Positions 3,881 to 45,600 of a stretch of DNA of 64,000 nt are shown here, one piece after another. Under the pieces are notes generated by a model, which ran no database searches, was not told where the DNA came from, and worked only from the letters and a program-made list of their open reading frames with translations. Location: NCBI GenBank assembly GCA_038894195.1, contig JAWAPZ010000001.1, positions 129,566 to 193,565 on the forward strand, in the 5' to 3' direction. This DNA is from Candidatus Pacearchaeota archaeon (GTDB taxonomy: Archaea > Nanobdellota > Nanobdellia > Pacearchaeales > UBA284). The stretch's first letter is position 1, and each line of letters begins with the position of its first letter. Position numbers and translations under genes: made by a program.

Positions 3881-4033
3881 GCCCCGATGGTGCAACGGTT
3901 AACATAGAACCCTGTCAGAGCCTTTTAAAAAGCCTCGGGAAACTAGTGCTTTAGGCTACTGAACGGTTCAGATCCGAGTTCGAATATAAGGGTAAACCCT
4001 TGTCAACCCTTAACGAAATTCTCGGTCGGGGCG
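3881..4033 (+). tRNA. Intron-containing tRNA, isotype undetermined; T-loop (59/60) intron plus probable further intron(s)
   Basis: Perfect 7-bp acceptor stem GCCCCGA/TCGGGGC. T-arm CCGAG-TTCGAA[35-nt insert]T-CTCGG. Discriminator G. TATA-like TTTTAAAAAA about 25 nt upstream. D-arm and anticodon arm are not contiguous, implying additional introns. Confidence 0.5.
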
Positions 4034-4132
4034 TTCTGAAAAGTTTGATTCCCAAGGTAAGTTTTTTATAAAATACTAACATGATATTTTTTTTCTATTT
4101 CTTTGGATAACTTTTTAGCTTTTTCTAACGCT

Positions 4133-4588
4133 TCAGGAAGCATGAATGAATGGGCTATATCTCTCTTTAATTTTTTTACAGCTTCTTCTAAACCCATCCT
4201 TTTTAGACATATAGTAAAATTTGGTAAAATTGGAGAGATTATCTGCAGAAAAAACTATTTTTGCTTCTATTGTTTCAGGATCCGGCCCTCTGCTCGTTCT
4301 ATGTGATTCAATACAATGCAAAATTGCTTTTAATTTAGTTTTATCATAACCAATTGCATTTAGGAATTCTTCTGCCATCTTTGCAGAAGCAACATTATGA
4401 TCATCTTTATCATAGCCTCCAGTAGGATGAACTATTTCATGTAACCAACAACCATATTCAACAACTTCTTTATTTGCACCTGGATAAAATTGTAATAACC
4501 ATAATCCCTCTTTAACCACCTACACTACATGATTATCAACAAAATATTTTGGTAATTTTGACCTCACAAATTGTTCTACTTTTTCCAT
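4133..4588 (-). pseudogene. HD-domain phosphohydrolase interrupted by an in-frame TAG (pseudogene, sequencing error or recoding)
   Basis: ATG at 4588 gives MEKVEQFVRSKLPKYFVDNHVV, then TAG (4520-4522), then VVKEGLWLL...LHEIVH...DKDDH in the same frame. Sequence on both sides of the TAG is typical of one HD-domain protein. The ORF table shows only the downstream part, starting at a GTG. Confidence 0.5.
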
Positions 4589-4834
4589 AAAAAGATAAAA
4601 GGATTACTTACTTAGATCCTTCTCTTAGATCCATAAAAAGAAAAATGTATTAACTTTGATGCTATTAATGCAATAATACACTAAAAAAAGATACAACTCA
4701 TTAATATGCAGGTTGGTAGTTAACTAGGTATAAGCGTTTCATCTTAGCAAATAAGAGAGTAGGTTTAAGATTTAACACAAGTGCTTGCATCCTAACACAA
4801 TAAAAAATAAAAACCAAGATTTTAAGTTAAAAAC

Positions 4835-5185
4835 ATGAAACTTGAAAAAATCGTTTTGTTTGCTTTGCCATTTTTTATAGCAAGCTCTGTTTTTGAAAAA
4901 ACCAAGGCCCCTGTTTATGAATTTAGAAAGCAAGAGGTTACAGACACGTTCTACTTAAGGAAACATAGAAGTTTAGGGCCATACGATATATTTTTAAAGG
5001 AAATTCTCGGAGATTCGGTTACGGTTGTGATAACTAAAGATAAGGAAAGTTATTTATTTTTATTAAAATTAGGTACTTCAATTACTTATCAAGACAAAAA
5101 TAATGAAACCACAATTACTGTTAATTCTATAAATAATGAGAAAGGAAAAGAGTGCATAATTTTTTCAAAAATTAATGAAAATTAA
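4835..5185 (+). CDS. Hypothetical small secreted protein
   Basis: N-terminal hydrophobic signal-like segment MKLEKIVLFALPFFIASSVF. Confidence 0.3.
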   Translation: MKLEKIVLFALPFFIASSVFEKTKAPVYEFRKQEVTDTFYLRKHRSLGPYDIFLKEILGDSVTVVITKDKESYLFLLKLGTSITYQDKNNETTITVNSINNEKGKECIIFSKINEN

Positions 5186-5237
5186 ACTAATCTTGCATCA
5201 CAACAAAGCTTATAAATTAGGCAGGTTTGGAAAAAAG

Positions 5238-5384
5238 ATGGCAGACAAGAATTGCGAGAAATGTCATGGAACAGGAATAGTAAAAGAGAAAGATGGTAGT
5301 GTCCATGTTTGTTTTGACTGCCTTAATAAGGGCGAAATGAATCAGCATTCTAAAGATGTTAAAGAAACGAAGATAAAAATTTAA
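5238..5384 (+). CDS. Small zinc-ribbon protein (CxxCxGxG ... CxxC)
   Basis: MADKNCEKCHGTGIVKEKDGSVHVCFDCLNKG with a DnaJ-type CxxCxGxG finger. Start chosen at an internal Met of the 69-aa ORF. Confidence 0.35.
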   Translation: MADKNCEKCHGTGIVKEKDGSVHVCFDCLNKGEMNQHSKDVKETKIKI

Positions 5385-5422
5385 TTCTAAAAGTTTAAAT
5401 AGTTTAAAAAGGAAACAAAATA

Positions 5423-6844
5423 ATGCGGTTAAAACATATATATGCTATTATCCCTGTAGGTTTCATAAGTGAGACATCTCAAGCTTTTCATACTGGTAAT
5501 CTTGCTGCTCCGATTCTTCGCGCAATGACCCCTAAAGAGATAAAAATTACACTTACAGACGAAAATCTTGGTGGTAAGATCGACTTTAATTCAAATGCTG
5601 ACCTTATCTTGCTGTTGAGTGTCATAACTTCTTGCGCCCCAAAAGCTTATAGAATTGCAAATGAGTTCAAAAAACGTGGTAAGATCGTTGGCATAGGGGG
5701 CCCACATCCAAGTGTTGCACCTGAAGAATCACTAGAATTTGCTGATTTTGTTGGTATTGGCGAGCTAGAAGGTTACTGGCCACAAGTTTTAAAAGATTTT
5801 GAAAAAAATAAGCTTAAAAAAGTTTACAAAAACAAAGAACCTGTCTGTCTAGACAAGTTACCTTGTCCTGATAGAACTATAATTGAAAATATGCGTGCAA
5901 AAGGCCATAAAGTAAATTATTTAACTGATGTTGTTACTTATACCACAAGAGGTTGCCCGTATAACTGTTCTTTTTGCACTGTCACTAATATTTATGGTGC
6001 AAAATATAGGTTCAGGCCCGTTAAAGAGGTTATTAAAGATATCTTAAAGCATGGTAGGAAATTAAACTTCATGCTTTTTGTAGACGATAATATATGGGCA
6101 AATCCTGAATATGCTAAAGAGCTTTTTAAAGAGATGATAAGAGCTAAATTAAATAAAAAATGGATAAGCCAAGCCAGTCTCTCGCAAGCTTTTGATACAG
6201 AACTACTGAAACTTGCAAAAAAAGCAGGGTGTTCTGGTGTATACATAGGTTATGAAAACATAAATCCTGAAAGCTTGGTAGAAGCACATAAACAAGTTAA
6301 CAAACCAGAACAATTTTTAAAACTAACAAAAAAAATTCATGAAGCAAGAATTCCTGTTATAGGAAGTTTTGTTTTTGGTTTTGATTCTGACACTAAAGAA
6401 ACTATAAAAGAGACTGTTGAATTTGCAATAAAGGCCAATATCGACTATGCACAATTTTGTATATTAACTCCTTTCAAAAAAACAGCTATATATGAGAAAT
6501 TGAAAAAGGAAAATAGAATTATAATTAACGGTGAAGATGGAGGAAAATTCCATGACAACTGGTCTTACTACACCTTTGGAAATGTTGTTTTTGAACCTAA
6601 AAACATGACTGCAAAAGAGCTAAAAGAAATGCAGGTTTGGGCATTCAGAAAATTCGGGGGGGCAAGATCAATTCTTAAGAGAAGTATACACGGCCTAAGA
6701 TATTTTCCTTTATACATGCCATTTCTAGGTTTCTTTAATCTGTTTACAAGACTTTCAGACTCGCAAAGAAGTAAAAACCCAAGAAAATTTCTTGAAAAAA
6801 ACATTAAAAAGTGGGAAAAAAAGTATAAAATCAGAAATGAGTAA
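5423..6844 (+). CDS. B12-binding domain radical SAM protein (class B rSAM)
   Basis: N-terminal cobalamin-binding-like domain, then the CxxxCxxC core RGCPYNCSFCTV. Confidence 0.8.
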   Translation: MRLKHIYAIIPVGFISETSQAFHTGNLAAPILRAMTPKEIKITLTDENLGGKIDFNSNADLILLLSVITSCAPKAYRIANEFKKRGKIVGIGGPHPSVAPEESLEFADFVGIGELEGYWPQVLKDFEKNKLKKVYKNKEPVCLDKLPCPDRTIIENMRAKGHKVNYLTDVVTYTTRGCPYNCSFCTVTNIYGAKYRFRPVKEVIKDILKHGRKLNFMLFVDDNIWANPEYAKELFKEMIRAKLNKKWISQASLSQAFDTELLKLAKKAGCSGVYIGYENINPESLVEAHKQVNKPEQFLKLTKKIHEARIPVIGSFVFGFDSDTKETIKETVEFAIKANIDYAQFCILTPFKKTAIYEKLKKENRIIINGEDGGKFHDNWSYYTFGNVVFEPKNMTAKELKEMQVWAFRKFGGARSILKRSIHGLRYFPLYMPFLGFFNLFTRLSDSQRSKNPRKFLEKNIKKWEKKYKIRNE

Positions 6845-6853
6845 AACACTAAG

Positions 6854-6862
6854 CTTTTAAAT
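6854..6862 (+). promoter_or_regulatory. TATA-box-like element upstream of tRNA-Lys
   Basis: CTTTTAAAT lies about 23-30 nt upstream of the tRNA 5' end at 6885. Confidence 0.4.
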
Positions 6863-6884
6863 GTCAAGTTTCTTGTTTTTTAGT

Positions 6885-7057
6885 GGGCCCGTAGCTCAGC
6901 CTGGTTAGAGCACTGGCCTTTTAAATAAGGACACTTCCTTATGAACCTTTAAATTAAAGGTAGAAGGAGAAAGCCAGGTGTCGGGGGTTCGAATGATCAG
7001 AAACCTACGGTTTCCGATGCTTTCCCTTGAGGAAAAACGAAAATCCCCTCGGGCCCG
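6885..7057 (+). tRNA. tRNA-Lys(TTT) with two introns: anticodon loop (~6925-6972) and T-loop 59/60 (~6994-7043)
   Basis: Acceptor GGGCCCG/CGGGCCC. D-arm TAGCTCAGCCTGGTTAGAGCA. Anticodon stem CTGGC, loop CTTTTAA, 48-nt intron, then GCCAG. T-arm GGGGG-TTCGAA[50 nt]T-CCCCT. Discriminator G. Confidence 0.75.
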
Positions 7058-7068
7058 TTTTAAGAAAT

Positions 7069-8541
7069 TTATTTTTTAAGATACTCGTGTCTCCAAATAG
7101 GGTCCGTCAATTTTTCAAGCTTCTTATCAAACTCATCTAAAAATTTTTCAAACTCTTTCGATTTTATTGCTAAAGCAGCATCTTTGTCCTCTGGTTTGGC
7201 TCTTTTCGTTAGAATATTTTTCTTGAAGTTTTTGAAATGATCTCTTATCGAGCATGGCATCAACCAGTTACTTGGATCGCTTTGATGTGCAAAACCATAT
7301 TCCTCTTGCCATTTTCTACCGTTCTTGAACAAATCAGAAAATAAAGCATCGGTAATGCTCTTGCCTTTCTTATAAAGGTCTATGATATTATCCTCGTAAT
7401 ATGGGACAAAAACGCACGGCATTATGTTTCCATTCCAGTCTATGTAAAAATAGCCTCCGCGCCTTGCATACGCAATACATCCATCTGCTAGTACTCCGGA
7501 GTTCCAGAAATCTGCTATGCAGTACCTTTTCTTCTCAAGAAGATATTCCCACTTTTTAAGCAATTCAACTCTCTCTTCTGGCGTTAACATCAACTCTTTT
7601 ACAGTTCTTGCTTTCCCGATTGGCATTAACTGAAATAACCATATGTATGTTGCACCAAGTTTCAAGAAAATAAAATCATAAAAATCATCTCTAAGTAAAG
7701 TGCCTATATTTTCTCTTGTTGCTGTCAATGAAATGCCAAACGGAACCCCGGCACGTCTCAAATTATTGGTGGCTTCAAGAATTTTCTTAAATACTCCTTT
7801 GCCTCTCCTTACATCAGTTTCTTTTTCAAAACCCTCTAATGAAATAGCTGGGCTAACATTTCCAAGTCTTGCAAGTCTCTCTGCAACTTCCTCATTAATA
7901 AGTGTTCCATTAGTATAAAACATAAAAAACATGTCAGGATGCTGCTCCCAGATATCAAACAAAGTCTTTCCTTGAGACTGATACATTAATGGTTCACCAC
8001 CACTTATGACCATAAATTTATTCCCTAGCAAATCGTGAGCTTCATTGGCTATTCTTTCTACTACGTTAAATGGTAGTGTTGGTGCTGTATCTTTTGAACT
8101 TGCGTAACAGCCAACGCATCTTAAATTACATCTCTGTGTAGGTGAAAGGACAATGAAACCAGGTGGCCAAATTCCGAAATCCTGTCTAAATTTATCTATA
8201 GTTCTAAGCTCCTTTGCTCCTTTTACCATGTTTCCCTGTACAAAAACATGTACAAGCTTATTGGCTACCTCTTTAGATATGTATCCTTTCTTAAAATTTC
8301 TAACAGAACACGTTAGGAGAGCTCTAGCAAAATTGAACTTCATTAATTTAACTTTTCTTAAGCAGTGTGGGTTCTTTTCAACTATATCTTTATACATTCT
8401 TCTTTCTAGAGAATTGAGAAATATGGTTTGAAGTATTGGCGTAAAAATGGCTTTTTTAAGTAAAGAAACAACAAAGCTTTCTTTAAACTCTCTTTCCTTA
8501 ACCTCTTTCGTACTACCCCCTTCACTTAGCAGGCTTTCCAT
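7069..8541 (-). CDS. Radical SAM / SPASM-domain protein (anaerobic sulfatase-maturase-like) with ~130-aa N-terminal extension
   Basis: CNLRCVGCY CxxxCxxC motif. C-terminal SPASM-like CIAYARRGGYFYIDWNGNIMPC. Confidence 0.8.
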   Translation of the reverse strand: MESLLSEGGSTKEVKEREFKESFVVSLLKKAIFTPILQTIFLNSLERRMYKDIVEKNPHCLRKVKLMKFNFARALLTCSVRNFKKGYISKEVANKLVHVFVQGNMVKGAKELRTIDKFRQDFGIWPPGFIVLSPTQRCNLRCVGCYASSKDTAPTLPFNVVERIANEAHDLLGNKFMVISGGEPLMYQSQGKTLFDIWEQHPDMFFMFYTNGTLINEEVAERLARLGNVSPAISLEGFEKETDVRRGKGVFKKILEATNNLRRAGVPFGISLTATRENIGTLLRDDFYDFIFLKLGATYIWLFQLMPIGKARTVKELMLTPEERVELLKKWEYLLEKKRYCIADFWNSGVLADGCIAYARRGGYFYIDWNGNIMPCVFVPYYEDNIIDLYKKGKSITDALFSDLFKNGRKWQEEYGFAHQSDPSNWLMPCSIRDHFKNFKKNILTKRAKPEDKDAALAIKSKEFEKFLDEFDKKLEKLTDPIWRHEYLKK

Positions 8542-8595
8542 TTTTATACTAAAAATCTGGGGTTTAAAAAGCTTTATTTTGTTTTATAAAATATA

Positions 8596-8625
8596 TCCCT
8601 GGCTCACCCCTCCTGCGCCAGCCCC
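8596..8625. promoter_or_regulatory. GC-rich hairpin (CTGGC...GCCAG) next to a T-run, between trpS stop and the rSAM/SPASM start; possible terminator or attenuator
   Basis: The 5-bp inverted repeat CTGGC...GCCAG within 8598-8620 has a 13-nt loop and is followed on the minus strand by ATATATTTTAT. It is a GC island in an AT-rich spacer. Confidence 0.3.
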
Positions 8626-8631
8626 TATTTT

Positions 8632-9777
8632 TTATATGTTCCAGTGAAAAATGAACTTATCAACCTGTTTTTTTGCTCTTTCTCTTGCTTTTTGATGCTG
8701 TTTCAAGAATATGTTTATTTTTGTTATAAGGTACTCTTTAAGTTCAGAGGTTAGCATAGAGCCTGTTTTATAATCCCTATAAATATCTGCTATTTTTTTG
8801 TCATCTGGCTCAAAGAAATAATTGAGCCATTGATATGAAACATCAACATCGGGATTACCACCTTGCTGTCTGTGTTCTTCTACAGTTGATTTGCCTCCAC
8901 TAAAAGCGTGCCTTGTTATCTTGTCTCTGACTTGCTCTGGCGTATCGGTAGTCCAGATTGTTGAATCAGGGTCGCTTGTTGACATTTTGCTACCATAAGT
9001 TTTTAATCCACTTAGAAATTTGGCGTGTATAATTGAAGGTTTATAGTAACCGAGTTTGGGTAAAACATCTCGCGCAATTCTGAAATGAGGATCTTGGTCT
9101 ATTCCTAAAGGAATTAAGCAAGGGATATTTTTCTTTGAAAGAACACTCGGCAAGAAACAAGGAACTGCCTGCATGGCTGTATAAAAAATAGAGCCTATGT
9201 TCGTTTCATTTGAAAAACCAAAAACAGCTTTGACAGTTGAGAATGTGATCTTTTTAGCAACTTTGCAAGCTTCTTTGAACATTATATTTGCGTGCCTTGT
9301 ATCAATTAAAAAATGTGTTTTTCTGTGATCAAAACCGAGAGCTATTACATCGAGCATGTTTTCATTTGTCCATTTTTGAACTTCATCAAACTCGAGATCT
9401 TCTCGAATCATGAATTTCTCTTCGTCTGGAAATTGAAACCATAGTTCTGCTTGGAATTTTTCTTGCAACCATCTGCAGAAAACCCATGGTAACAAGTGTC
9501 CTATATGTATCTTGCCTGACGGGGCACGACCAGTGTATAAAAAAAATTTATTTCCTCGTTCATATTCATCAAGAAGCCATGTAAGATCTCTGTGAGCTAA
9601 AAAAACTCTTCTTGTCAGCATGAAATGCAGTTCTTTTGCATGTTTCTTAATTCTTTCAAGAATTTCATTGGTTATGGGTTGAATACCAAATTTTTTTATG
9701 AGGTGCTGATAATCTTTTTCGGTCAGCCTGCCTCTAAATTCGTAGGGGGTTAGTTTAGCATCCTGCACATTTTTCAT
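8632..9777 (-). CDS. trpS: Tryptophanyl-tRNA synthetase, archaeal/eukaryotic type
   Basis: HIGH-like GKIHIGH and KMSTS. The N-terminus KLTPYEFRG...KKFGIQPIT is typical of archaeal TrpRS. The ORF is open to 9849; start is more likely MKNVQD at 9777. Confidence 0.85.
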   Translation of the reverse strand: MKNVQDAKLTPYEFRGRLTEKDYQHLIKKFGIQPITNEILERIKKHAKELHFMLTRRVFLAHRDLTWLLDEYERGNKFFLYTGRAPSGKIHIGHLLPWVFCRWLQEKFQAELWFQFPDEEKFMIREDLEFDEVQKWTNENMLDVIALGFDHRKTHFLIDTRHANIMFKEACKVAKKITFSTVKAVFGFSNETNIGSIFYTAMQAVPCFLPSVLSKKNIPCLIPLGIDQDPHFRIARDVLPKLGYYKPSIIHAKFLSGLKTYGSKMSTSDPDSTIWTTDTPEQVRDKITRHAFSGGKSTVEEHRQQGGNPDVDVSYQWLNYFFEPDDKKIADIYRDYKTGSMLTSELKEYLITKINIFLKQHQKARERAKKQVDKFIFHWNI

Positions 9778-9830
9778 CTTACCATGAAGAACAGAGATTT
9801 TATAAATCTTACTTGCATTAAGAGATAAAA

Positions 9831-11278: not shown

Positions 11279-11279
11279 T

Positions 11280-11771: not shown

Positions 11772-11853
11772 TTTCTTATTTTTGACACTTTAAAATGGTT
11801 ACAACTGTTTATAAATTTTTTCTTAAAAAGTTAGGATAAGTAAGGAGTAAAAA

Positions 11854-15151: not shown

Positions 15152-15324
15152 TTTCAGAATACATCTTTCTTATGCCTCGAAAGTTTTTAAATGTTTCTAT
15201 ATGTTTTATATGTTGGTTTGCTGAGACATTATTTTTAGACAACATAAATAATTTTCTGTTAACAATAATCATACAATCTAATAATTTTAAAAAGGAAGCA
15301 TTAACAATTTTTTATTTGTAAAAG

Positions 15325-15440
15325 TCCCCGCAGCCGGATTTGAACCGGCAACCTCACGGGTTCTATGAACGCATGCTCGAGTTTCACGCAAAATGATGCA
15401 TAAACTACAGCCGTGCGCTCCACCATTGAGCTATGCGGGG
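15325..15440 (-). tRNA. tRNA-Tyr(GTA) with ~45-nt anticodon-loop intron
   Basis: Reverse complement shows acceptor CCCCGCA/TGCGGGG, D-arm GCTC-AATGGTG-GAGC, anticodon stem CACGG/CCGTG around CTGTAG plus intron, T-arm GCCGG-TTCAAAT-CCGGC. Discriminator A. Confidence 0.75.
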
Positions 15441-19182: not shown

Positions 19183-19247
19183 ATTTTTTAAAAGAAATCT
19201 TTATTTATAAATCTTTCTATTTGTTGTTACCAAATAATAACAAAAAA

Positions 19248-19320
19248 TGCTCCTGCCGAGATTTGAACTCGGGTCACAGCCGTGAGAGGGCTGTATCCTT
19301 GGCCTCTAGACTACAGGAGC
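19248..19320 (-). tRNA. tRNA-Glu(CTC), intron-less
   Basis: Reverse complement: GCTCCTG/CAGGAGC acceptor, anticodon stem CAGCC/GGCTG with loop CTCTCAC, T-arm CGAG-TTCAAAT-CTCG. Discriminator A. Confidence 0.85.
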
Positions 19321-19557: not shown

Positions 19558-19657
19558 TAGCCCTGCCAGGATTTTCTTAAGCATCTAAAAAATGCTCGTT
19601 CGAACCTGGGTCCTTTGGGCCAGAGCCAAAGATCCTTGACCGCTAGACTACAGGGCT
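19558..19657 (-). tRNA. tRNA-Gln(CTG) with 27-nt intron at T-loop position 59/60
   Basis: Reverse complement: AGCCCTG/CAGGGCT acceptor. Anticodon stem TTTGG/CCAAA with loop CTCTGGC. T-arm CCAGG-TTCGAA[CGAGCATTTTTTAGATGCTTAAGAAAA]T-CCTGG. Confidence 0.75.
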
Positions 19658-19711: not shown

Positions 19712-19797
19712 GCCTCGGTAGCTCAGTTGGTTAGTAGCGCGACCTTGGTAATTAACTAAAAAGGTCGAGGTCCCGTGTTCAAATCACGGCCGAGGCT
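19712..19797 (+). tRNA. tRNA-Thr(GGT) with short (~11-nt) anticodon-loop intron
   Basis: GCCTCGG/CCGAGGC acceptor. Anticodon stem CGACC/GGTCG enclosing TTGGTAA plus TTAACTAAAAA. T-arm CCGTG-TTCAAAT-CACGG. D-stem pairing is imperfect. Confidence 0.65.
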
Positions 19798-29945: not shown

Positions 29946-30890
29946 CTACTTTTTCACAACTTTATAGATTTCTTCAAGATCTTTTTCATGTATTAAAGGA
30001 ACAAAAGCATAACCCGGTTCTCTTGAAACAAGATAAAGATTGCCGCCCCGGAATTGCCATACTTCTAGGCCGCCGTAATCAAAGAATTCACGAGTAGGAA
30101 ACAGAATCAAACCATCTTCTCTAAGAAGCGATTGGCCCATCTCTTTCACGCGAGGAAGATGTTCTTTAGAAACACCTGCTGTAAAAAAAATTCTGTCGTA
30201 TTTTTGTTTCCAGATCGGATTCTCTTTATCAAGAGCATCTCCAACTACGAATTGTATTTCAAATTTTTTTCTCTCTTTTTTGTCAAGACTTTCTATAAAA
30301 CGGTTTATATTTTTGATTGCATTTTCTGCTAGTGGTTGAAAAATTTCTATAGTAGTTACCTGGCCTGGATAGACGAGCCATGAAGCCAGAGCAGCATGAT
30401 ATCCTGTATTCGTTCCTATTTCAAGAACATCAAGTCCTGGCCTCAGCTCAATTTTTTTCAACATCCTGGCTATTGTTGTTGGCTGACTTATTGTTTGACC
30501 GAAAGCAATGTGTTTGGCTTCATCGCTATATGGATCATGTTTAACAAAAAATTTTCTGTCTACAATTCTAAAAGCTTGCTCAATTTCTGGAGGCAAACCC
30601 GGATTATTGATCTTAATCGACTTTATCATCAGTTCTAATTCGTTTTTAACTGGGATGAAAATTTTTTTCTGTTCTTGAGTTTTTCTTGTTTTGTTAATTT
30701 TTCTTGTCCTCATCCCTGTTTCCTTAGATTTTGTTTTTATGTGTTTTATTTTATGCTTAATTTTTTTAATAGAAAATAGACCGATACGAAGTGCTGATTT
30801 TTTCTTTTGTTTTTTCCTTGTTTTTTTAATTTTATGTTTTATTTTCTTTATATCTTTATATTTCTTGTTTTTTTTGCCTCTTTTTTTCAT
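29946..30890 (-). CDS. pcm: Protein-L-isoaspartate O-methyltransferase with ~85-aa lysine-rich N-terminal extension; true start may be internal (~30629)
   Basis: AFRIVDRKFFV and the SAM-binding DVLEIGTNTGYHAALA. Residues 1-87 are about 50% Lys/Arg. Confidence 0.8.
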   Translation of the reverse strand: MKKRGKKNKKYKDIKKIKHKIKKTRKKQKKKSALRIGLFSIKKIKHKIKHIKTKSKETGMRTRKINKTRKTQEQKKIFIPVKNELELMIKSIKINNPGLPPEIEQAFRIVDRKFFVKHDPYSDEAKHIAFGQTISQPTTIARMLKKIELRPGLDVLEIGTNTGYHAALASWLVYPGQVTTIEIFQPLAENAIKNINRFIESLDKKERKKFEIQFVVGDALDKENPIWKQKYDRIFFTAGVSKEHLPRVKEMGQSLLREDGLILFPTREFFDYGGLEVWQFRGGNLYLVSREPGYAFVPLIHEKDLEEIYKVVKK

Positions 30891-38063: not shown

Positions 38064-38202
38064 TTTAAAATTAGCTTAATCAATTTTTTGTTTATGTATT
38101 TTCTTTACTTAAAACATAAATTCAGAAGATTTATAAAGGTTTTGGCTCGCTTAATCAAAACTTATTTAAAAGCTGATTCTCTTTTATCTAAAAAGAGGGA
38201 AA

Positions 38203-38733: not shown

Positions 38734-38734
38734 G

Positions 38735-39655: not shown

Positions 39656-39656
39656 A

Positions 39657-40142
39657 ATGTTAAAAATATTTAAAAATAAAAAAACACAATTTAAGATACA
39701 AGAGATGGCTTTTGTTCTTTTAGCAGTTGTTCTACTTTTCGGCCTGGTATTTGTTTTTTTTGCAAGGTTCGAGTTGGAGAAAGTTAGAAATATTGCAGAG
39801 ACTACCCGAGAGGAAAGAGCTGTAACACTTGTAAGAGTTATAGCTTCTATGCCTGAATTAAGATGTTCGGGGAGTATAAACAAGATAAGCGAAGCTGCTT
39901 GTCTCGATCTTGATAAAGTCAAAGCATTTAATAACAGTGACGTCTTGAGATCTAATTATAGAAAGATTTGGCAGTCTAGTTTTGTTACTGAAGTAATTGT
40001 TAGAGAAATTTTTCCTGGAAATAAAACGTATACGATTTATAAAGAGCAAGAAAGTAATGAAAGTTACTATAGTTTTATGCCATTATGTTCACAAAAGAAA
40101 TGTGTTGTTGCAAGACTTATAGTTGGAATAAAAACTGTGTAA
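39657..40142 (+). CDS. Pilin-like protein, paralogue 3
   Basis: KNKKTQFKIQEM followed by AFVLLAVVLLFGLVFVFF. Confidence 0.45.
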   Translation: MLKIFKNKKTQFKIQEMAFVLLAVVLLFGLVFVFFARFELEKVRNIAETTREERAVTLVRVIASMPELRCSGSINKISEAACLDLDKVKAFNNSDVLRSNYRKIWQSSFVTEVIVREIFPGNKTYTIYKEQESNESYYSFMPLCSQKKCVVARLIVGIKTV

Positions 40143-40143
40143 G

Positions 40144-40644
40144 ATGAAAAACAAAAAGGCGCAGGAAGAGATGATGGGTTTTTTAATGATAGTAATAATT
40201 ATAGTTATAATAGGACTTGTTTTTTTTGCGTTCTCTTTGAGACAGAAAGGTAAAAACATAGAACCAAAAGCAATGCAACAGGAGGATTTGTTACAAGCTG
40301 TTCTGCTTTATAGTACTGATTGCGAACTTAACAATGAAATGCTAAACGTAAGAGAGCTTATACAAGAATGTAATGAAATGCCTTCAAGAACTTGTGAGAA
40401 TGATAATATCAGGATGTGTAGCAAGCTAGAAGAGAATTTAGAGTCTATGTTAGAGGTTTTGCTTGGAAAAAATCAAAGTATAAAGAACGCTTTTATCCAT
40501 GGATATAGTTTTTATATTAACGCTTCACAAGAGATCTTGATAGAAAAAGGAAATCTAACTGGGGATTATTTCAGTTCAAGGGTTCCTATCCCCGTCGGTT
40601 ATGGCAGTGAAGCTATCATAGTTCTAAAAAGTTATTATAGCTAG
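40144..40644 (+). CDS. Pilin-like protein, paralogue 4
   Basis: MKNKKAQEEMMG followed by FLMIVIIIVIIGLVFFAF. Confidence 0.5.
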   Translation: MKNKKAQEEMMGFLMIVIIIVIIGLVFFAFSLRQKGKNIEPKAMQQEDLLQAVLLYSTDCELNNEMLNVRELIQECNEMPSRTCENDNIRMCSKLEENLESMLEVLLGKNQSIKNAFIHGYSFYINASQEILIEKGNLTGDYFSSRVPIPVGYGSEAIIVLKSYYS

Positions 40645-40671
40645 TTTGATATACAAAACTAAATTAAAACC

Positions 40672-41169
40672 TTAAATGCTTATAGAGAGGTTTAATTTAT
40701 TAACTTGCAAAACAGGTTTGAGTTTCTCTCTTGCTTTTGTTCTTTCTTTTACCATTTTAATTAAACCGAACTTTTCCAAGGTTCTAAGATCCTCCCTTAC
40801 TGCTTTAAAATCTCTGGCAGAAAGTTTAGCTAGTTTGTAGATAGAGCTTGGTTTTTTTGTTTTTATCAAATGTAGCAACCTTGCTTTTTCATTGCTAAGC
40901 AATGCACGGATGTCAGAAAGCTCTATATGCTGACTCAAAGCTAGTGGTCCTGCTTTTCTTAAATCTTTTATACTTTTTGTCACCTCTTCCACGCTTTCAG
41001 TCACTGTTGATTTTATTTTTTTAATAGCTGGGACCCAGGAAGCCAGGGGTGTTTGCTCTAACATACCTGAAATGCCTGTTCCTTTTTTCTGTTCTTCATT
41101 TTGTGCTTGTTTTTCTTGTTTTCTTTCTTTAAAACTAAGAAACAGGTGTATATTTTTCTTGCCTTTCAT
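40672..41169 (-). CDS. Winged-helix/HTH transcriptional regulator
   Basis: C-terminal LSARDFKAVREDLRTLEKFGLIKMVKERTK wing-helix pattern. Confidence 0.45.
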   Translation of the reverse strand: MKGKKNIHLFLSFKERKQEKQAQNEEQKKGTGISGMLEQTPLASWVPAIKKIKSTVTESVEEVTKSIKDLRKAGPLALSQHIELSDIRALLSNEKARLLHLIKTKKPSSIYKLAKLSARDFKAVREDLRTLEKFGLIKMVKERTKAREKLKPVLQVNKLNLSISI

Positions 41170-41470
41170 TTTTTACGTCGTTAAAACTTGAATAATTGCA
41201 AGGTAAAATATGTTTTTAAATATTATGCTTCTAAGATATATATATTTTTTTAGCATATATGTAACAAAATAACATATAAAATTAAAATCGCGCTGCTGGT
41301 TTTTTAGCATCCTAAATATAGTGTAACTTTTAAGAAGAAACATAAGCTTTATAAATAAAACCTAAGAACTTAGTAAAAAAAATTGGTGTCATAGAAAACT
41401 TTAAAAATGCAGAATTTATAAGTTAAACATAAGCTGGCCAGCGTTCATTTCTGAACGCAATTTTTAATTG

Positions 41471-41490
41471 ATTGAAAGGAGGTTTAGAAA
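41471..41490 (+). promoter_or_regulatory. Strong Shine-Dalgarno-like site (GGAGG) for the S-layer gene
   Basis: AAAGGAGGTTTAGAAA immediately precedes the ATG at 41491. About 300 nt of AT-rich leader lies upstream. Confidence 0.5.
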
Positions 41491-43755
41491 ATGAAACTAC
41501 TTAAGAAAATAGCACCTATAGCAGGAATCCTTTTAATGACTGGATTGACTTTTGGTGCTGCAACAGCAGCAGAACTTGGAACATGGAAAGCAAACTTTCC
41601 ATCAGCAAGTACTTCAATTGTTGTTGGTACAGGCCATAACGATGCAATTGCAATGACAGAAATTGCATCTGAGATTGGAATAACTGCTGCAACCACAACA
41701 GTAACTGGTGAAAGCTACAAGTTTGAAAAAACAAGGGATCACCTTAATCTAGGGGAAAACTTTTACCACATAAAGGAAAGGCTTACAAAAAACGAATTGC
41801 CAACCATACTTGCAGATAAGTCTTACGAGGACGCAGATGGAAATACTTATGATTATACACAAAAAATAAGTATCGCAAACGGAAATAGTCTTACACACTT
41901 CAAGAATGACGACTACAAAGATGGTGCGTTAACTCTCGGGTTTGAATTGAATGAAAATGACCCTATACTAAATTACACTTTGAGCTTTGTAGAGAAACCA
42001 GATTTTGATAATGATACTTTAGAAACAACAGTAATAGAAATGATGGGAAGAGAGTATTATATAAGTAGTATTGATGCTACTGCCGACTCGATGACTTTTC
42101 TTGAAGCCGGACAAACTGCCACAGTGTATGAAGGCGAAACTGCATCAATAGGTGGAAAGAGTGTAAAACTTGTTACTGTTTATCCTTCCGGAGACACGTA
42201 TAAAGCTGTGTTAGAAATAGATGGCACTGAAACAAGGGGTCTTAAAGAGGGTGGAACACAAAAAGTGGGTTCGGTCTATGTTGGTGTTCTTGAAATAAGA
42301 TACAATTCAAGAGAAACAGGGAGAAGCTCTGCACGAATAAGTATAGGTAGTGGAGAAATAGTGATAAAGGATGGAGAAGAAGTAAAAATAAGTGAGAAAA
42401 GTGTAGATAACCTGTTCGGTCATATTGACACCTCTAGTGATAAACTTAACAGCATCACATTAGAATGGCTACTTGAAGAGGATGCATTTCTTGGTTCTGG
42501 GGATGAGATTGTTTTACCTGGTTTCAAAAATATAAAACTGATGATGACAGAAATGGTTTTCCCAACAGGAGAGCAAATAAAAGTTGGTTATTCTGGAACT
42601 AAGAAAGCTTTGTTAAAAGTTCCTATAGAATCTGGAACTGGAACTTCTGATGTTGTTCTTTTGGAAGGTGATGGAACTACCTGGAATTACCTTGGAGAAT
42701 CAAGTAAACCATTGAAGGTTACTAATGAAAGTGAATTTACGGGCCTAACCAAGAAGGACCGCTTCTTTGCCACATACATGGAAGAAGAAGAAGGACAATC
42801 TTATTACTTATATGTATATGGCTTTGACGAAGACAAAGATACAGTAACCTTTAAGTCAGTTGATGGAAGCAGTAGTTGCACAGTTTCTGATGGGGATGAT
42901 TGCACTTTTGGACAGGTTTCATTCAAAGTTGCTGGTTTGGATGCTGAAGGTGAAGAAGTAAACATAACGGCAGCAGATGATGTTTACTTTGACAGAATTG
43001 TTTCAAAAGCAGGAGCTTTGTTTTGGCTTCCCAACACAATAGAAGGTAATGAACACTACATTAATCTCACAGTGAGTAATTCTTGGGATCTTGTTATGTC
43101 TGAAAAAGATGAAGACGGAAATATAGGGGATGGAAAAGAAATAACCTTTGCATTAAAATTCGCAGACGCTAAGGCAACTGTTGGACAACCAACAGCAACA
43201 TGGGCTGGAGGTGATATGCTCGAACAAGATGATGACACTGATGTTGGTTATGTTGAATCGCCCCTTGCAACAAAAGTAGTTTATGAAACTGGTGGCGACC
43301 AGGATTACGCGGATGTGACTTATTTTGGTGAAGAAGTCTACGGTAACGTTTATATTGCAGGTGCTGGTACAACAACCAGCGGTGAAGGCAGTGTAGCTAT
43401 TCTTGATACAGAATTCCTGGCTGGACCAAAGACAAACAATGTCGTGCTTATAGGGGGTTCTGGTGTCAACAAAGCATCAGCTCAGTTGCTCTTTAATTCC
43501 CAAAACCTAGTATATGGAAGTGATCCTGCCTGGGTTGCGGCCACTGGAGTTGACTCTGTTGGTAAGGCACTAGTAAAACTTCAGGCAAGTCCATGGGCTA
43601 CTGGCAAATATGCACTGCTTGTTGCTGGTTTCGAGGCAACAGATACGCTAAGAGCTGCAAGGCTTTTGACAACAACTCCTAGTGCACTAGCGGGAAAAAC
43701 AACTGCCTTACTTAATACAGGTACTGAAGAAGCAACCCTTATAAGTGGTAGCTAA
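41491..43755 (+). CDS. S-layer (surface layer) protein, Methanococcus-type
   Basis: Signal peptide MKLLKKIAPIAGILLMTGLTFGAATAAE. N-terminal DAIAMTEIASEIG and C-terminal ALLVAGFEATDTLRAARLL resemble methanogen S-layer proteins. GC content is markedly above flanking genes. Confidence 0.65.
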   Translation: MKLLKKIAPIAGILLMTGLTFGAATAAELGTWKANFPSASTSIVVGTGHNDAIAMTEIASEIGITAATTTVTGESYKFEKTRDHLNLGENFYHIKERLTKNELPTILADKSYEDADGNTYDYTQKISIANGNSLTHFKNDDYKDGALTLGFELNENDPILNYTLSFVEKPDFDNDTLETTVIEMMGREYYISSIDATADSMTFLEAGQTATVYEGETASIGGKSVKLVTVYPSGDTYKAVLEIDGTETRGLKEGGTQKVGSVYVGVLEIRYNSRETGRSSARISIGSGEIVIKDGEEVKISEKSVDNLFGHIDTSSDKLNSITLEWLLEEDAFLGSGDEIVLPGFKNIKLMMTEMVFPTGEQIKVGYSGTKKALLKVPIESGTGTSDVVLLEGDGTTWNYLGESSKPLKVTNESEFTGLTKKDRFFATYMEEEEGQSYYLYVYGFDEDKDTVTFKSVDGSSSCTVSDGDDCTFGQVSFKVAGLDAEGEEVNITAADDVYFDRIVSKAGALFWLPNTIEGNEHYINLTVSNSWDLVMSEKDEDGNIGDGKEITFALKFADAKATVGQPTATWAGGDMLEQDDDTDVGYVESPLATKVVYETGGDQDYADVTYFGEEVYGNVYIAGAGTTTSGEGSVAILDTEFLAGPKTNNVVLIGGSGVNKASAQLLFNSQNLVYGSDPAWVAATGVDSVGKALVKLQASPWATGKYALLVAGFEATDTLRAARLLTTTPSALAGKTTALLNTGTEEATLISGS

Positions 43756-43764
43756 AAAGAGGTG

Positions 43765-43830
43765 CTAAAAAGAATTTTTTCTTTTTTGTTTTTTCTTTTT
43801 GTTTTTTAATTTTTTATTTCTATTGATGAT
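43765..43830 (+). terminator. Oligo-T terminator region after the S-layer gene
   Basis: TTTTTTCTTTTTTGTTTTTTCTTTTTGTTTTTTAATTTTTTATTT runs of T, typical of archaeal termination. Confidence 0.5.
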
Positions 43831-43952
43831 AATAGGTGGTTGAAAATTACCCCTTTCGTCAAAATTGGCTTCCAGCTAATATAAATATGCCGTTACTTTC
43901 TACAAAGCTACATTGGTGAGAAAATTTAAATATTAAATCAGAACTTATTTTA

Positions 43953-44606
43953 ATGTACAAGATTAAAAAGACCAGAACAAAAATGTTAAAACCACTAGAA
44001 ACAAAAGAAATGCAAGAAAAAAGGATAAAAAAAAGAAATATAATTTTTGGTGTTATAATAGCTGTTATTATGATTGCTGGAACAGTCGGATGGGCTCTTT
44101 CAGGAAGAGAAAAAACAAACCAAGAAGAATACAACGGATTTAAGTTCATAAAGCAAGAGAATTACTGGCAAACTTCAGTAAGCATTTATGGTAGCAATTT
44201 TTTGCTTAGAACTAGTTACTTGCCAAGGGAGGTTGAAAACATAACCAGTAAAAGTAGAACACTTTCATTAGAAAAAATTTATGGCAAGACCCTATATGTT
44301 GTGTTAGATTCGGCTATTGAGCAAGAACCTGTCAGAGAACTTGCACTAAATTTGCAAAATTTTGTTGAAAGAATACAGATTGCTTGTTCAGAAAATGTGT
44401 CAGAAGAAAGTATAAGTTTTTGCTCTGACAAGCCAGTAAAGGGCTGTGATGACGCAACTCTTGAAAATGCAATAATAGTTTTTGAAGAAAAAAATTTAAC
44501 AAAACTGGAGTACAAGGCTGGTTGTTTACAGATACAGGCTCAAGAATCTGATTTTTTGAGGGCTTCGGATAAAGCTTTATTTTTAATTTTTGGTATTATG
44601 ACATAA
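43953..44606 (+). CDS. Hypothetical membrane-anchored protein
   Basis: N-terminal TM helix (IIFGVIIAVIMIAGTVGWAL). Confidence 0.35.
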   Translation: MYKIKKTRTKMLKPLETKEMQEKRIKKRNIIFGVIIAVIMIAGTVGWALSGREKTNQEEYNGFKFIKQENYWQTSVSIYGSNFLLRTSYLPREVENITSKSRTLSLEKIYGKTLYVVLDSAIEQEPVRELALNLQNFVERIQIACSENVSEESISFCSDKPVKGCDDATLENAIIVFEEKNLTKLEYKAGCLQIQAQESDFLRASDKALFLIFGIMT

Positions 44607-44638
44607 GAATATAAAAGGACTTTAAAAGGATATAAAAA

Positions 44639-45367
44639 ATGGACGAGCAAAATAATGAAATAGAAAAGGGAGAAAATGCTGAAGAAAGAGAAAATCTTGA
44701 AAAAGGGCAAGAAAAATTGCCTGGAACTGAAAAAAAAGTTCTAAAAAGTAAAAACATTACCCTAATTATACTTTTACTGGTTATTGCTGCCGTCATAGTT
44801 TTTTTTGTTTTTAAAGATGATATAACTTCTTTTGTTGTTAAAAACAATTTTAATTACAATGGCTTAGAATTTTTTAAGACAACGTTGTACAAAGAAACTT
44901 TCTTCGCGACAAAAGTTAATTTAACTGTAAAAAATGTAAAGAACACACATATCTTCTATTTCAGAAATGATCCTAGAAAACTCGATAGGATCCCTTTTAG
45001 TGTTAATAGAAAAATTGCAACAAAAACTTACGTTTCCTTTACAAAAGAATCCCTTCAATGTGAAACTGTGAATCTTGTTGCATGGAATCTCGGTGATTTT
45101 TTAGGAAGAATGGGTTCTAAAGTTACTGGTGCTGTTGCTGATCCTGAATCCAGTGAAAACGGCACAAAGCTAGTTGTAAATTGTTCAAGTAACAAAAAAG
45201 AGATTATTGTTTTAAAAGCACAAGCTAGCCAAACAAGAGTGTATCAGGATGCTAATAACGAGGGGTGCATCATAATAGAAGCCAAGGATTGTTCGATTAT
45301 AGAAGCAAGTGAAAGATTTATCCTTGGAATGCTTGTAAAAAAAATTAATGAAGAAAAAGTTGAATAG
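44639..45367 (+). CDS. Hypothetical membrane-anchored protein
   Basis: N-terminal acidic region then a TM helix (ITLIILLLVIAAVIVFFVF). Confidence 0.35.
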   Translation: MDEQNNEIEKGENAEERENLEKGQEKLPGTEKKVLKSKNITLIILLLVIAAVIVFFVFKDDITSFVVKNNFNYNGLEFFKTTLYKETFFATKVNLTVKNVKNTHIFYFRNDPRKLDRIPFSVNRKIATKTYVSFTKESLQCETVNLVAWNLGDFLGRMGSKVTGAVADPESSENGTKLVVNCSSNKKEIIVLKAQASQTRVYQDANNEGCIIIEAKDCSIIEASERFILGMLVKKINEEKVE

Positions 45368-45402
45368 AAAGATTTTAAATTGCTTCTTCTTTATATTTTT
45401 AT

Positions 45403-45600
45403 GCCGACGTGGCCCAATGGTACGGCGCCCGCCTTGAGAGCGGGTTCCCGCAAGGGTTTCCAGGTTCGAAAATAAGGAACACATTTCCTTATCAACCTTT
45501 GGAAGAATAAGGAACACATTTCCTTATCAACCTTTGGAAGAATAAGGAACACATTTCCTTATCAACCTTTGAGTTGAAAACGAAAATCCTGGCGTCGGCG
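45403..45600 (+). tRNA. tRNA-Ser(TGA) with ~116-nt intron at T-loop position 59/60
   Basis: Acceptor GCCGACG/CGTCGGC. D-arm GCC-CAATGGTAC-GGC. Anticodon stem CCCGC/GCGGG with loop CTTGAGA. Long variable arm TCCCGCAAGGGT. T-arm CCAGG-TTCGAA[intron]T-CCTGG. Discriminator G. TATA-like TTTTAAAT about 25 nt upstream. Confidence 0.8.
45471..45575 (+). repeat. Three tandem direct repeats of a 35-bp unit inside the tRNA-Ser intron (third copy truncated)
   Basis: The unit AATAAGGAACACATTTCCTTATCAACCTTTGGAAG occupies 45471-45505 and 45506-45540. Copy 3 (45541-45570) diverges into GAGTTGAAAACGAAAA. Each unit has the hairpin TAAGGAA...TTCCTTA. Confidence 0.9.

What the first reader, a model, noticed from the sequence alone, without database searches (positions are those of the whole stretch)
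3881..45600. Four tRNAs share an intron at the non-canonical T-loop position 59/60, with a common 3' motif that can form the splicing helix
The tRNA at 3881, tRNA-Lys, tRNA-Gln and tRNA-Ser all read T-stem-TTCGAA[insert]T-T-stem. The inserts are 35, 50, 27 and ~116 nt and end in ...AACGAAAAT, ...AACGAAAT or ...AAGAAAAT. The intron-terminal CGAA can pair with the exonic T-loop TTCG, giving the central helix of a bulge-helix-bulge substrate. This is a coherent family of 59/60 introns, not scattered degenerate inserts. It implies a relaxed-specificity splicing endonuclease in this organism.
Basis: partly seen in the sequence, partly recalled or inferred. Interest (0 to 1): 0.7.

Follow-up and report, generated by a model that had tools for sequence, protein, structure and literature searches.

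The report
T-loop introns in DPANN tRNA genes

Summary
tRNA-Asp(GUC), tRNA-Lys(UUU), tRNA-Gln(CUG) and tRNA-Ser(UGA) read T-stem–TTCGAA–[35/50/27/116 nt]–T–T-stem. Deleting each insert restores a tRNA that ARAGORN accepts; reversed-sequence controls gave 0 of 284.

The last intron bases (CGAA, AGAA in Gln) pair with T-loop 54-57. This leaves a 3-nt 3' bulge next to the T-stem and A58-A59|i1 unpaired. That is the canonical 37/38 geometry moved to the T-arm.

The helix closing the 5' bulge is imperfect or absent, so these are relaxed hBH-type BHB introns. Relatives support this:
- Intronless orthologues exist.
- Position 57 and its intron partner often change together (TTCG:CGAA versus TTCA:TGAA).

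The window is from a Pacearchaeota/Woesearchaeota-like DPANN archaeon. 59/60 introns, relaxed motifs and multi-intron tRNAs are already documented in ARMAN-2, Thermoproteales and a 2018 DPANN survey, so this is a new member of a known kind.

New detail: a conserved module (ATAAGGG…CCCTTATCAACCCTT) recurs.
- In the window: the Asp and Ser 59/60 introns (tripled in Ser) and the Lys canonical intron.
- In metagenomes: other tRNAs at 30/31, 37/38 and 59/60, and an RNase P RNA.
This suggests intron spread.

No EndA gene lies in the window. More distant relatives carry a single-unit EndA, not the predicted (αβ)2 or ε2.

The parts
3881..4033 (+). tRNA-Asp(GUC) gene with two introns
   Evidence: Cloverleaf restored after removing the T-loop insert; ARAGORN calls Asp gtc with a canonical intron. 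TTTTAAAAAA box about 30 nt upstream.
3918..3963 (+). Canonical 37/38 intron of tRNA-Asp, 46 nt
   Evidence: Coordinates. Central helix 32-35 CTGT: ACTG pairs 3 of 4; 3' bulge AA|C.
3985..4019 (+). 59/60 intron of tRNA-Asp, 35 nt (TATAAGGGTAAACCCTTGTCAACCCTTAACGAAAT); carries the conserved module
   Evidence: MFE equals centroid: T-stem, 3-nt bulge AUU, 4-bp TTCG:CGAA, 5' AAUA unpaired, then a 7-bp UAAGGGU:ACCCUUA helix; z = -3.6. Pairing probabilities 0.67-0.75 for the central helix.
6885..7057 (+). tRNA-Lys(UUU) gene with two introns
   Evidence: ARAGORN after removal of the insert; promoter box.
6924..6971 (+). Canonical 37/38 intron of tRNA-Lys, 48 nt; starts with the same module (A-ATAAGGACACTTCCTTATGAACCTTT)
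   Evidence: Central helix CTTT:GGAG (2 Watson-Crick + 2 GU); 3' bulge AA|A.
6994..7043 (+). 59/60 intron of tRNA-Lys, 50 nt; no module
   Evidence: TTCG:CGAA 4 of 4, 3' bulge AA|T. The MFE slips the G-run T-stem by one position and the intron body forms two hairpins in a multiloop.
19558..19657 (-). tRNA-Gln(CUG) gene (A1-U72, A73) with one intron
   Evidence: The identical sequence is on an independent Logan contig, L001.
19572..19598 (-). 59/60 intron of tRNA-Gln, 27 nt
   Evidence: TTC:GAA 3 bp plus a G57-A mismatch, 3' bulge AAU, 8-bp internal hairpin; z = -3.6. Orthologues: a 12-nt intron at the same site in L002, none in L003 and L004.
45403..45600 (+). tRNA-Ser(UGA) gene (long variable arm) with one intron
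45471..45586 (+). 59/60 intron of tRNA-Ser, 116 nt
   Evidence: TTCG:CGAA 4 of 4, bulges AA|A and AA|T. The motif is kept in both MFE and centroid; z = -4.8.
45471..45571 (+). Tandem array inside the Ser intron: 2.9 identical copies of a 35-nt unit (AATAAGGAACACATTTCCTTATCAACCTTTGGAAG), each holding the module
   Evidence: TRF: period 35, 100% matches; module match.
15324..15440 (-). tRNA-Tyr(GUA) with a 44-nt canonical intron (15361-15404); context showing how intron-rich the tRNA set is
19712..19797 (+). tRNA-Thr(GGU) with an 11-nt canonical mini-intron (19751-19761); context
   Evidence: The orthologue in L003 instead has a 65-nt 59/60 intron.
19247..19320 (-). tRNA-Glu(CUC), the only intron-free tRNA gene in the window; context

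Best explanation
These are four genuine tRNA genes. Each carries a protein-spliced archaeal (bulge-helix-bulge class) intron between T-loop nucleotides 59 and 60.

Geometry (shown): the T-arm has a 5-bp stem and a 7-nt loop, the same shape as the anticodon arm. An intron inserted after the sixth loop nucleotide, whose 3' part pairs with loop nucleotides 1-4, recreates the canonical 37/38 substrate 22 nucleotides further on. The parts are:
- the T-stem as the outer helix;
- a 3-nt bulge (last two intron bases plus T60) holding the 3' cut;
- a 4-bp central helix, T54-T55-C56-G57 with CGAA;
- A58-A59 plus the first intron base holding the 5' cut.
The helix that should close the 5' bulge is imperfect (Asp, Gln) or replaced by local hairpins in a multiloop (Lys, Ser). 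The substrates are therefore relaxed 'hBH' motifs.

Processing (inferred): the splicing endonuclease EndA cuts both sites, RtcB-type ligase joins the exons, and the normal TTCGAAT loop results. The enzyme must tolerate a poorly formed 5' bulge.

Origin (inferred): the shared 3' motif is a consequence of pairing to the invariant T-loop, not proof of common descent. Two of the four introns, together with the canonical Lys intron, do share a homologous 5' module (N-ATAAGG-loop-CCTTAT-C/G-AACC-C/T-TT). That module also sits in other tRNAs and positions in related organisms. At least this subfamily therefore spread by duplication or transposition, needing only a new 4-nt 'guide' at its 3' end to fit each new site.
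For: - Cloverleaf and correct anticodons after insert removal, with a zero false-positive control.
- Motif geometry table: central helix 4/4 Watson-Crick in Asp, Lys and Ser, 3/4 in Gln; 3' bulge of 3 nt in all.
- The motif is the MFE and centroid for isolated T-arm substrates in 3 of 4 window genes and in 2 relatives, z from -2.6 to -4.8. In the full pre-tRNAs it is the MFE in Asp, Gln and Ser.
- Co-variation at position 57 and intron position -6: C with G57 in Asp, Lys, Ser, L002 Gln, L003 Thr and L053; T with A57 in L025, L027, L099, L119 and L128.
- Orthologue alignments show clean presence or absence at this site. Gln: 27 nt in the window, 12 nt in L002, none in L003/L004. Thr: 65 nt in L003, none in five others.
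- All seven tRNA genes and the RNase P RNA gene have a TTTTAAA-type box about 27-33 nt upstream, and all eight introns end in AA (AU in the Asp 59/60 intron) before the 3' site.
- Module shared across positions and genes.
- Literature: 59/60 is a recognised non-canonical site (PMC4090602). A 13-nt hBH intron at 59/60 of ARMAN-2 tRNA-Cys is cut in vitro by its EndA (PMC3239211). Similar introns at canonical and non-canonical sites in Thermoproteales were interpreted as transposition (Fujishima 2010, cited in PMC4090602 and PMC4033280).
Against: - There are no RNA data, so splicing and expression are inferred.
- No EndA or RtcB gene lies in the window, so the enzyme of this organism is unknown.
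- In tRNA-Lys the thermodynamic model prefers a T-stem slipped by one base, giving a 2-nt bulge.
- In tRNA-Ser the motif has only about 0.3 probability in the full-length ensemble, because the repeats offer competing folds.
- The central helix cannot show much covariation because one strand is the nearly invariant T-loop, and several relatives have a mismatch at position 57.
- The rest of the genome is unseen, so intact second copies of these tRNAs cannot be excluded.
Confidence: 0.85

Rival explanations
1. The four loci are decaying tRNA pseudogenes that picked up insertions; functional copies lie elsewhere in the genome.
For: Only 64 kb of the genome is visible. Standard tRNA finders reject the loci.
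Against: - Exons are intact, with perfect 7-bp acceptor stems, correct discriminators and promoter boxes like those of the uninterrupted genes.
- Inserts are always at one site and end in a sequence complementary to the T-loop.
- The tRNA-Gln intron site is kept in a relative with 72% PheRS-beta identity, while the intron body differs.
- One related MAG has a complete chromosome of only 648 kb. From general knowledge, not tested here, DPANN genomes of that size usually carry single tRNA gene copies.
Confidence: 0.04
2. The inserts are real but are not removed by EndA. Either they stay in the RNA as T-loop expansions, or they are self-splicing (group I or II) introns.
For: None positive. The same module sits in an RNase P RNA loop in L120 without a convincing BHB, so it may stay in the RNA there.
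Against: - 27-116 nt is far too short for a group I or II ribozyme, and Rfam finds none.
- From established tRNA structure, a T-loop enlarged by 27-116 nt could not form the D-loop/T-loop elbow.
- The conserved helix-plus-3-nt-bulge is the EndA substrate signature.
Confidence: 0.03
3. All four 59/60 introns descend from one ancestral intron: a single homologous family.
For: Same position and near-identical 3' ends, AACGAAA(A/T) in three of them.
Against: - The Lys and Gln T-loop introns share nothing with the Asp and Ser introns beyond the last 6-9 bases, which are constrained by pairing with TTCG.
- The Asp/Ser module is instead shared with the canonical intron of tRNA-Lys.
- Introns at TTCA loops often end in TGAA, as expected for a structural constraint.
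Confidence: 0.15
4. The triplicated 35-nt unit in the tRNA-Ser intron is an assembly artefact, and the true intron is about 46 nt.
For: The copies are 100% identical, the source is a metagenome assembly, and no second assembly of this locus was found.
Against: The 101-nt array is shorter than a typical read pair. The flanks are unique and the intron still folds into the motif. Tandem duplication by slippage is ordinary.
Confidence: 0.1

Closest known systems
59/60 intron of pre-tRNA-Cys(GCA) in ARMAN-2 (Candidatus Micrarchaeum acidiphilum), Fujishima et al. 2011, PMC3239211
   Same: It is a DPANN archaeon with an intron at the same T-loop position. The motif is relaxed hBH/BHL with a well-formed 3' bulge and central helix. 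The 12-nt tRNA-Gln intron of relative L002 is almost the same design as the 13-nt ARMAN-2 intron. Cleavage by the cognate EndA was shown in vitro for ARMAN-2.
   Different: The lineage differs (Pacearchaeota/Woesearchaeota-like). Here 4 of 7 visible genes carry the intron, with lengths up to 116 nt, and one has an internal tandem repeat. ARMAN-2 uses a three-unit epsilon2 EndA. The enzyme here is unknown, and more distant relatives have a single-unit enzyme.
Multi-intron tRNA genes and 'intron transposition' in Thermoproteales (Sugahara 2008; Fujishima 2010; summarised in PMC4090602, PMC4033280, PMC8450103)
   Same: Several introns per gene: 8 introns in 7 genes here, against a reported average of 0.84 per gene in Thermoproteales. 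59/60 is among the listed sites. [quoted passage not shown]
   Different: Those are hyperthermophilic Crenarchaeota with (alpha-beta)2 EndA carrying the Crenarchaea-specific loop. This is a low-GC (33%) DPANN organism. The module here is also found in an RNase P RNA gene.
Canonical archaeal 37/38 BHB intron
   Same: Identical geometry relative to a 5-bp stem and 7-nt loop: cut after loop nucleotide 6, intron 3' end paired to loop nucleotides 1-4, 3-nt bulges. The canonical introns of Asp, Lys, Tyr and Thr in this window follow the same rule and also end in AA.
   Different: It is located in the T-arm, so the intron must be removed before the tRNA elbow can form. The inner helix h' is not canonical.
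DPANN survey of Kaneta et al. 2018 (PMC5829648)
   Same: That study analysed one Pacearchaeota and one Woesearchaeota genome. It reported single-unit (alpha4-type) EndAs with an extra loop in several DPANN lineages, associated with more disrupted tRNA genes, and it predicted undetected disrupted tRNAs.
   Different: In the main text read here, that paper gives no per-gene description of 59/60 introns, the module or the tandem repeat in this lineage. Its supplement was not available.

Membership tests
Archaeal BHB-class tRNA intron, non-canonical position 59/60 (relaxed hBH type) | Interrupts an otherwise complete tRNA gene; removal restores the cloverleaf and a 7-nt T-loop | tested here: met
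   ARAGORN accepts all four after removal. The reversed-sequence control gave 0 of 284. Intronless orthologues read TTCGAATCC.
Archaeal BHB-class tRNA intron, non-canonical position 59/60 (relaxed hBH type) | 4-bp central helix formed between exon and intron, with a 3-nt bulge holding the 3' splice site next to an outer helix | tested here: met
   TTCG:CGAA 4/4 in Asp, Lys and Ser; 3/4 in Gln. A 3-nt bulge abuts the T-stem in all. It is the MFE or centroid, except for a one-base slip in Lys. Position 57 and intron -6 change together in relatives.
Archaeal BHB-class tRNA intron, non-canonical position 59/60 (relaxed hBH type) | Removed by EndA and joined by RtcB-type ligase in vivo | not testable with these tools
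   No RNA data are available. No EndA or RtcB was found in the window.
Strict hBHBh' motif (3-4-3 with both flanking helices) | 5' splice site in a 3-nt bulge closed by an inner helix h' directly adjoining the central helix | tested here: not met
   Asp has a 4x1 internal loop (A-A mismatch) before a 7-bp helix. Gln has a 4x2 loop. In Lys and Ser the 5' site opens into a multiloop with local hairpins.
Transposed or duplicated tRNA intron families (as described for Thermoproteales) | Closely similar intron sequences in different isoacceptors and at different positions | tested here: met
   The module is in Asp 59/60, Ser 59/60 (three copies) and Lys 37/38 in the window, and in L003 Thr 59/60. 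The 26-mer is identical or nearly so in Ser-GCU, two class-II Leu-type tRNAs (one read as Leu-UAA), Lys (30/31) and Gly (37/38) of metagenome contigs.
Transposed or duplicated tRNA intron families (as described for Thermoproteales) | Demonstrated mechanism of movement | not testable with these tools
   The mechanism is unknown in the literature as well (PMC4090602). There were no hits in viral contigs.
Self-splicing group I / group II introns | Ribozyme core recognisable by covariance model; length above about 200 nt | tested here: not met
   Inserts are 27-116 nt, with no Rfam match even at E up to 10.
Broad-specificity EndA, (alpha-beta)2 or epsilon2 type, in this organism | Genes for alpha+beta subunits or a three-unit protein, with a specific Lys-bearing loop | not testable with these tools
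   The gene is not in the window. Seven Aenigmatarchaeota-like relatives have a single-unit EndA of about 180 aa with a 6-aa Lys-rich insertion before the catalytic His. A database search from one of these returned only single-unit proteins of 174-297 aa in the top 120, and none was labelled Pacearchaeota.

The most novel reading that the evidence does not exclude
The 26-35-nt module (N-ATAAGGGTAAACCCTTATCAACCCTT plus a short site-specific tail) may be an actively spreading element of Pacearchaeota/Woesearchaeota-like DPANN archaea. It would insert into loops of structured RNA genes: the T-loop at 59/60, the anticodon loop at 37/38, the anticodon stem at 30/31, and an RNase P RNA loop. It would be tolerated because it supplies half of an EndA substrate and needs only a 4-nt match to the target loop. 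The identity of its 26-mer in several different tRNA genes on separate metagenome contigs, loop bases included, would then reflect recent horizontal or intragenomic spread, or recognition of the sequence by a protein. If so, this would be a tractable case for the unsolved question of how archaeal tRNA introns are gained.
Probability: 0.3. Interest if true: 0.65.

Novelty: new member of a known kind. Interest (0 to 1): 0.35.

Why it matters
- Annotation: ARAGORN and Rfam miss 4 of the 7 tRNA genes in this window. According to PMC8450103, the intron models of tRNAscan-SE 2.0 were trained on Crenarchaeota, Euryarchaeota and Thaumarchaeota only. DPANN genomes scored as 'lacking' tRNAs may simply carry T-loop introns. 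Kaneta et al. 2018 suspected this, and the present case documents it.
- Biology: it extends heavy tRNA-gene disruption (more than one intron per gene) and intron families shared between positions from hyperthermophilic Thermoproteales to a low-GC, reduced-genome lineage. The clean presence/absence differences among close relatives could be used to time intron gain and loss.
- Enzyme: it predicts that this lineage's EndA, probably a single-unit enzyme, cuts substrates with a poorly formed 5' bulge.

Tried and rejected
- Default ARAGORN, ARAGORN with introns, and Rfam at gathering and at E up to 10 do not see the four genes. Low-stringency ARAGORN calls at 30576, 40418 and 54000 have no support from either custom scan and were dropped.
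- EndA in the window: Pfam on 40 ORFs, phmmer with M. jannaschii EndA (sequence checked against PDB 1a79) and an HMM of eight EndAs all found nothing in the window or in the closest relatives' loci.
- A database search seeded with an Aenigmatarchaeota-like EndA returned only Aenigmatarchaeota- and Nanohaloarchaeota-labelled proteins in the top 120. The enzyme of the Pacearchaeota-like lineage stayed out of reach.
- The metagenome scan for the degenerate module gave 116 hits, about the number expected by chance (roughly 1.5e-10 per base). Most are unrelated hairpins, and only those inside tRNA or RNase P genes were used.
- I tried to read the module in the L120 RNase P RNA as a BHB intron. The best pairing is GU-rich and lacks an outer helix, so it is not convincing.
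- There were no matches of the module in viral contigs.
- I looked for C/D-box or other known RNA motifs in the introns by eye and with Rfam and found none.

Full report
**What is in the window.** The window has about 33% G+C and is archaeal. It holds an archaeal RNase P RNA at 62479-62839 (82 bits), exosome, proteasome and aCPSF1/FttA genes, several aminoacyl-tRNA synthetases and large surface proteins. The PheRS beta subunit is 72% and 69% identical to MAGs labelled Candidatus Pacearchaeota, 62-64% to MAGs labelled 'archaeon' or Woesearchaeota, and 40-49% to Aenigmatarchaeota. The organism is therefore a Pacearchaeota/Woesearchaeota-like DPANN archaeon. The only other copy found is a 10-kb Logan contig from SRR27730018.

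**Checking the observation.** ARAGORN and Rfam report only tRNA-Glu, tRNA-Tyr (canonical intron) and tRNA-Thr (11-nt canonical intron).
- My scan looked for a 5-bp stem, TTCRA, an insert, the complementary stem and a 7-bp acceptor.
- With the insert deleted, ARAGORN calls tRNA-Asp(gtc), tRNA-Lys(ttt), tRNA-Gln(ctg) and tRNA-Ser(tga). Asp and Lys each also have a canonical intron of 46 and 48 nt (coordinates).
- The same pipeline on reversed sequences accepted 0 of 284 candidates, against 17 of 260 on real sequence.
- A second scan, based on acceptor stem plus D-arm, found no other tRNA gene.
- In total there are seven tRNA genes with eight introns. Six genes are interrupted, four of them at 59/60.
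- All seven, and the RNase P RNA gene, have a TTTTAAA-type box about 27-33 nt upstream. This argues that they are expressed genes.

**Structure of the junctions.** tabulates the geometry.
- In every case the T-stem is followed by T54-T55-C56-G57. This pairs with the four intron bases that precede the last two: CGAA in Asp, Lys and Ser; AGAA in Gln, giving three pairs plus a G-A mismatch.
- The last two intron bases (AA or AU) and T60 form a 3-nt bulge against the T-stem. A58, A59 and the first intron base are unpaired.
- This is the canonical 37/38 design transposed to the T-arm, because both arms have a 5-bp stem and a 7-nt loop cut after loop position 6. The canonical introns of Asp, Lys, Tyr and Thr follow the same rule. 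Seven of the eight introns end in AA; the Asp 59/60 intron ends in AU.
- Folding isolated T-arm substrates gives this motif as both MFE and centroid for Asp, Gln and Ser, with z from -3.6 to -4.8.
- tRNA-Lys folds with its G-run T-stem slipped by one position.
- The inner helix is not canonical. Asp has an A-A mismatch before a 7-bp helix, Gln has a 4x2 loop, and Lys and Ser open into multiloops. The motifs are therefore relaxed (hBH-like), not strict hBHBh'.

**Comparative evidence.** The Thr-Gln-Glu cluster next to PheRS-beta is syntenic in relatives.
- tRNA-Gln has a 27-nt insert in the window, a 12-nt insert at the same site in L002, none in L003 and L004, and a 30-nt D-loop insert instead in L006.
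- tRNA-Thr has a 65-nt 59/60 insert only in L003.
- More distant Aenigmatarchaeota-like loci carry T-loop inserts in Asn, Phe, Leu and Arg genes.
- Across all cases the partner of position 57 often tracks it. Loops with G57 mostly have C (CGAA). Loops with A57 often have T (TGAA in L025, L027, L099, L119 and L128). Several cases have a mismatch.
- This modest covariation, together with clean presence/absence at one site, supports a spliced intron rather than random damage.

**Are the four one family?** The common 3' motif is explained by the pairing constraint. By sequence there are at least two groups.
- The Asp and Ser T-loop introns begin, from intron base 2, with ATAAGG-loop-CCTT(A/G)TCAACC(C/T)TT. 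So does the canonical intron of tRNA-Lys (with G for the C) and, in a diverged form, the 59/60 intron of L003 tRNA-Thr.
- The Lys and Gln T-loop introns lack this module.
- In tRNA-Ser the module-bearing 35-nt unit is present in 2.9 identical tandem copies.
- A metagenome scan with a degenerate pattern returned about the number of hits chance predicts. Among them were several low-GC contigs in which a nearly invariant 26-mer, ATAAGGG(T/C)AA(A/G)CCCTTATCAACCCTT, lies in structured RNA genes:
  - at 59/60 of tRNA-Ser(GCU);
  - at 59/60 of two class-II, Leu-type tRNAs: L119/L128, which I read as Leu(UAA) and which also have a D-loop insert, and L112/L147 (ARAGORN's isotype calls for class-II genes are unreliable); L053 carries a GTGAAC-loop variant of the module at the same site;
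  - at 30/31 of tRNA-Lys;
  - at 37/38 of tRNA-Gly(CCC);
  - inside a terminal loop of an RNase P RNA.
- This parallels the similar introns at different positions that were interpreted as transposition in Thermoproteales (Fujishima 2010, as summarised in PMC4090602 and PMC4033280).

**The enzyme.** No EndA is encoded in the window or in the closest relatives' loci.
- Seven Aenigmatarchaeota-like loci encode a single-unit EndA of about 180 aa. In several of them it lies just downstream of tRNA genes that carry T-loop introns.
- These proteins keep Tyr115 and His125 (M. jannaschii numbering).
- They have a 6-aa Lys-rich insertion just before His125. This is the same place as the 5-aa insertion of ARMAN-2 EndA in the PDB alignment.
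- They have Ala or Thr where catalytic Lys156 aligns.
- This fits Kaneta et al. 2018 (PMC5829648), who reported single-unit EndAs with extra loops in several DPANN lineages, associated with more disrupted tRNA genes.
For this organism the question remains open.

**Comparison with what is known.**
- 59/60 is a listed non-canonical site (PMC4090602).
- A 13-nt hBH intron at 59/60 of ARMAN-2 tRNA-Cys is cut in vitro by its EndA, and ARMAN-2 tRNA-Pro has a strict BHB intron at 59/60 (PMC3239211).
- Thermoproteales average 0.84 introns per tRNA gene (PMC8450103).
- The finding is therefore a correct, well-read instance of a known phenomenon in a lineage where I found no per-gene description.
- It adds two details: a conserved, apparently spreading intron module, and a tandemly triplicated intron.

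**Verdict.** Novelty: new member of a known kind. Interest is moderate to low (0.35). The most novel reading that remains open is that the module is an active mobile element of structured-RNA genes (probability about 0.3).

Noticed in passing
L120:253-678 (metagenome contig; module at about 525-550): An archaeal RNase P RNA (117 bits) carries the same 26-nt module, ATAAGGGTAAACCCTTATCAACCCTT, inside a 45-nt insertion in a terminal loop. I could not draw a convincing BHB around it, so it may be an unspliced expansion or a very relaxed intron.
   Followed up: partly
L013:2686-3279, L018:650-1219, L021:1664-2254, L024:3667-4317, L025:3663-4319, L027:909-1505, L030:3682-4392: Single-unit EndA genes of Aenigmatarchaeota-like MAGs, in several loci just downstream of T-loop-intron tRNA genes. 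They keep catalytic Tyr and His but have Ala or Thr at the position of catalytic Lys156 (M. jannaschii numbering). They also carry a conserved Lys-rich 6-aa insertion, (K/R)KGPK(S/A), just before the His. A lysine of that loop might replace the missing one.
   Followed up: partly
window 45471-45571: A 35-nt unit of the tRNA-Ser intron is present in 2.9 perfectly identical tandem copies. This is either a recent slippage duplication or an assembly effect.
   Followed up: partly
window 19751-19761 (+): tRNA-Thr(GGU) has an 11-nt canonical mini-intron that can only form a bulge-helix-loop. Orthologues have no intron, a 17-nt canonical intron (L008) or a 65-nt 59/60 intron (L003).
   Followed up: partly
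L006:13340-13444: The orthologous tRNA-Gln of a 58%-identity relative has a 30-nt insert in the D-loop instead of the T-loop. ARAGORN mislabels it tRNA-Ala with an anticodon-loop intron.
   Followed up: partly
window 62479-62839 (+): The RNase P RNA scores 82.1 bits, just under Rfam's gathering score of 84. It has three large insertions relative to the archaeal model (48 vs 12 nt, 104 vs 59 nt, and about 29 extra nt near the 3' end).
   Followed up: no
window, 24-35 nt upstream of 3881, 6885, 15440(-), 19320(-), 19657(-), 19712, 45403, 62479: All eight stable-RNA genes share a (G/A)-TTTTAAA(A/T)-type box at the same distance from the mature 5' end. This is a likely BRE/TATA promoter consensus for this organism.
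   Followed up: partly
window 41491-62342: A run of very large ORFs (754, 1140, 557, 1240, 541, 916 and 723 aa), mostly without Pfam matches apart from weak S-layer or Ig-like domains. They are probably cell-surface proteins, as is typical of DPANN.
   Followed up: no
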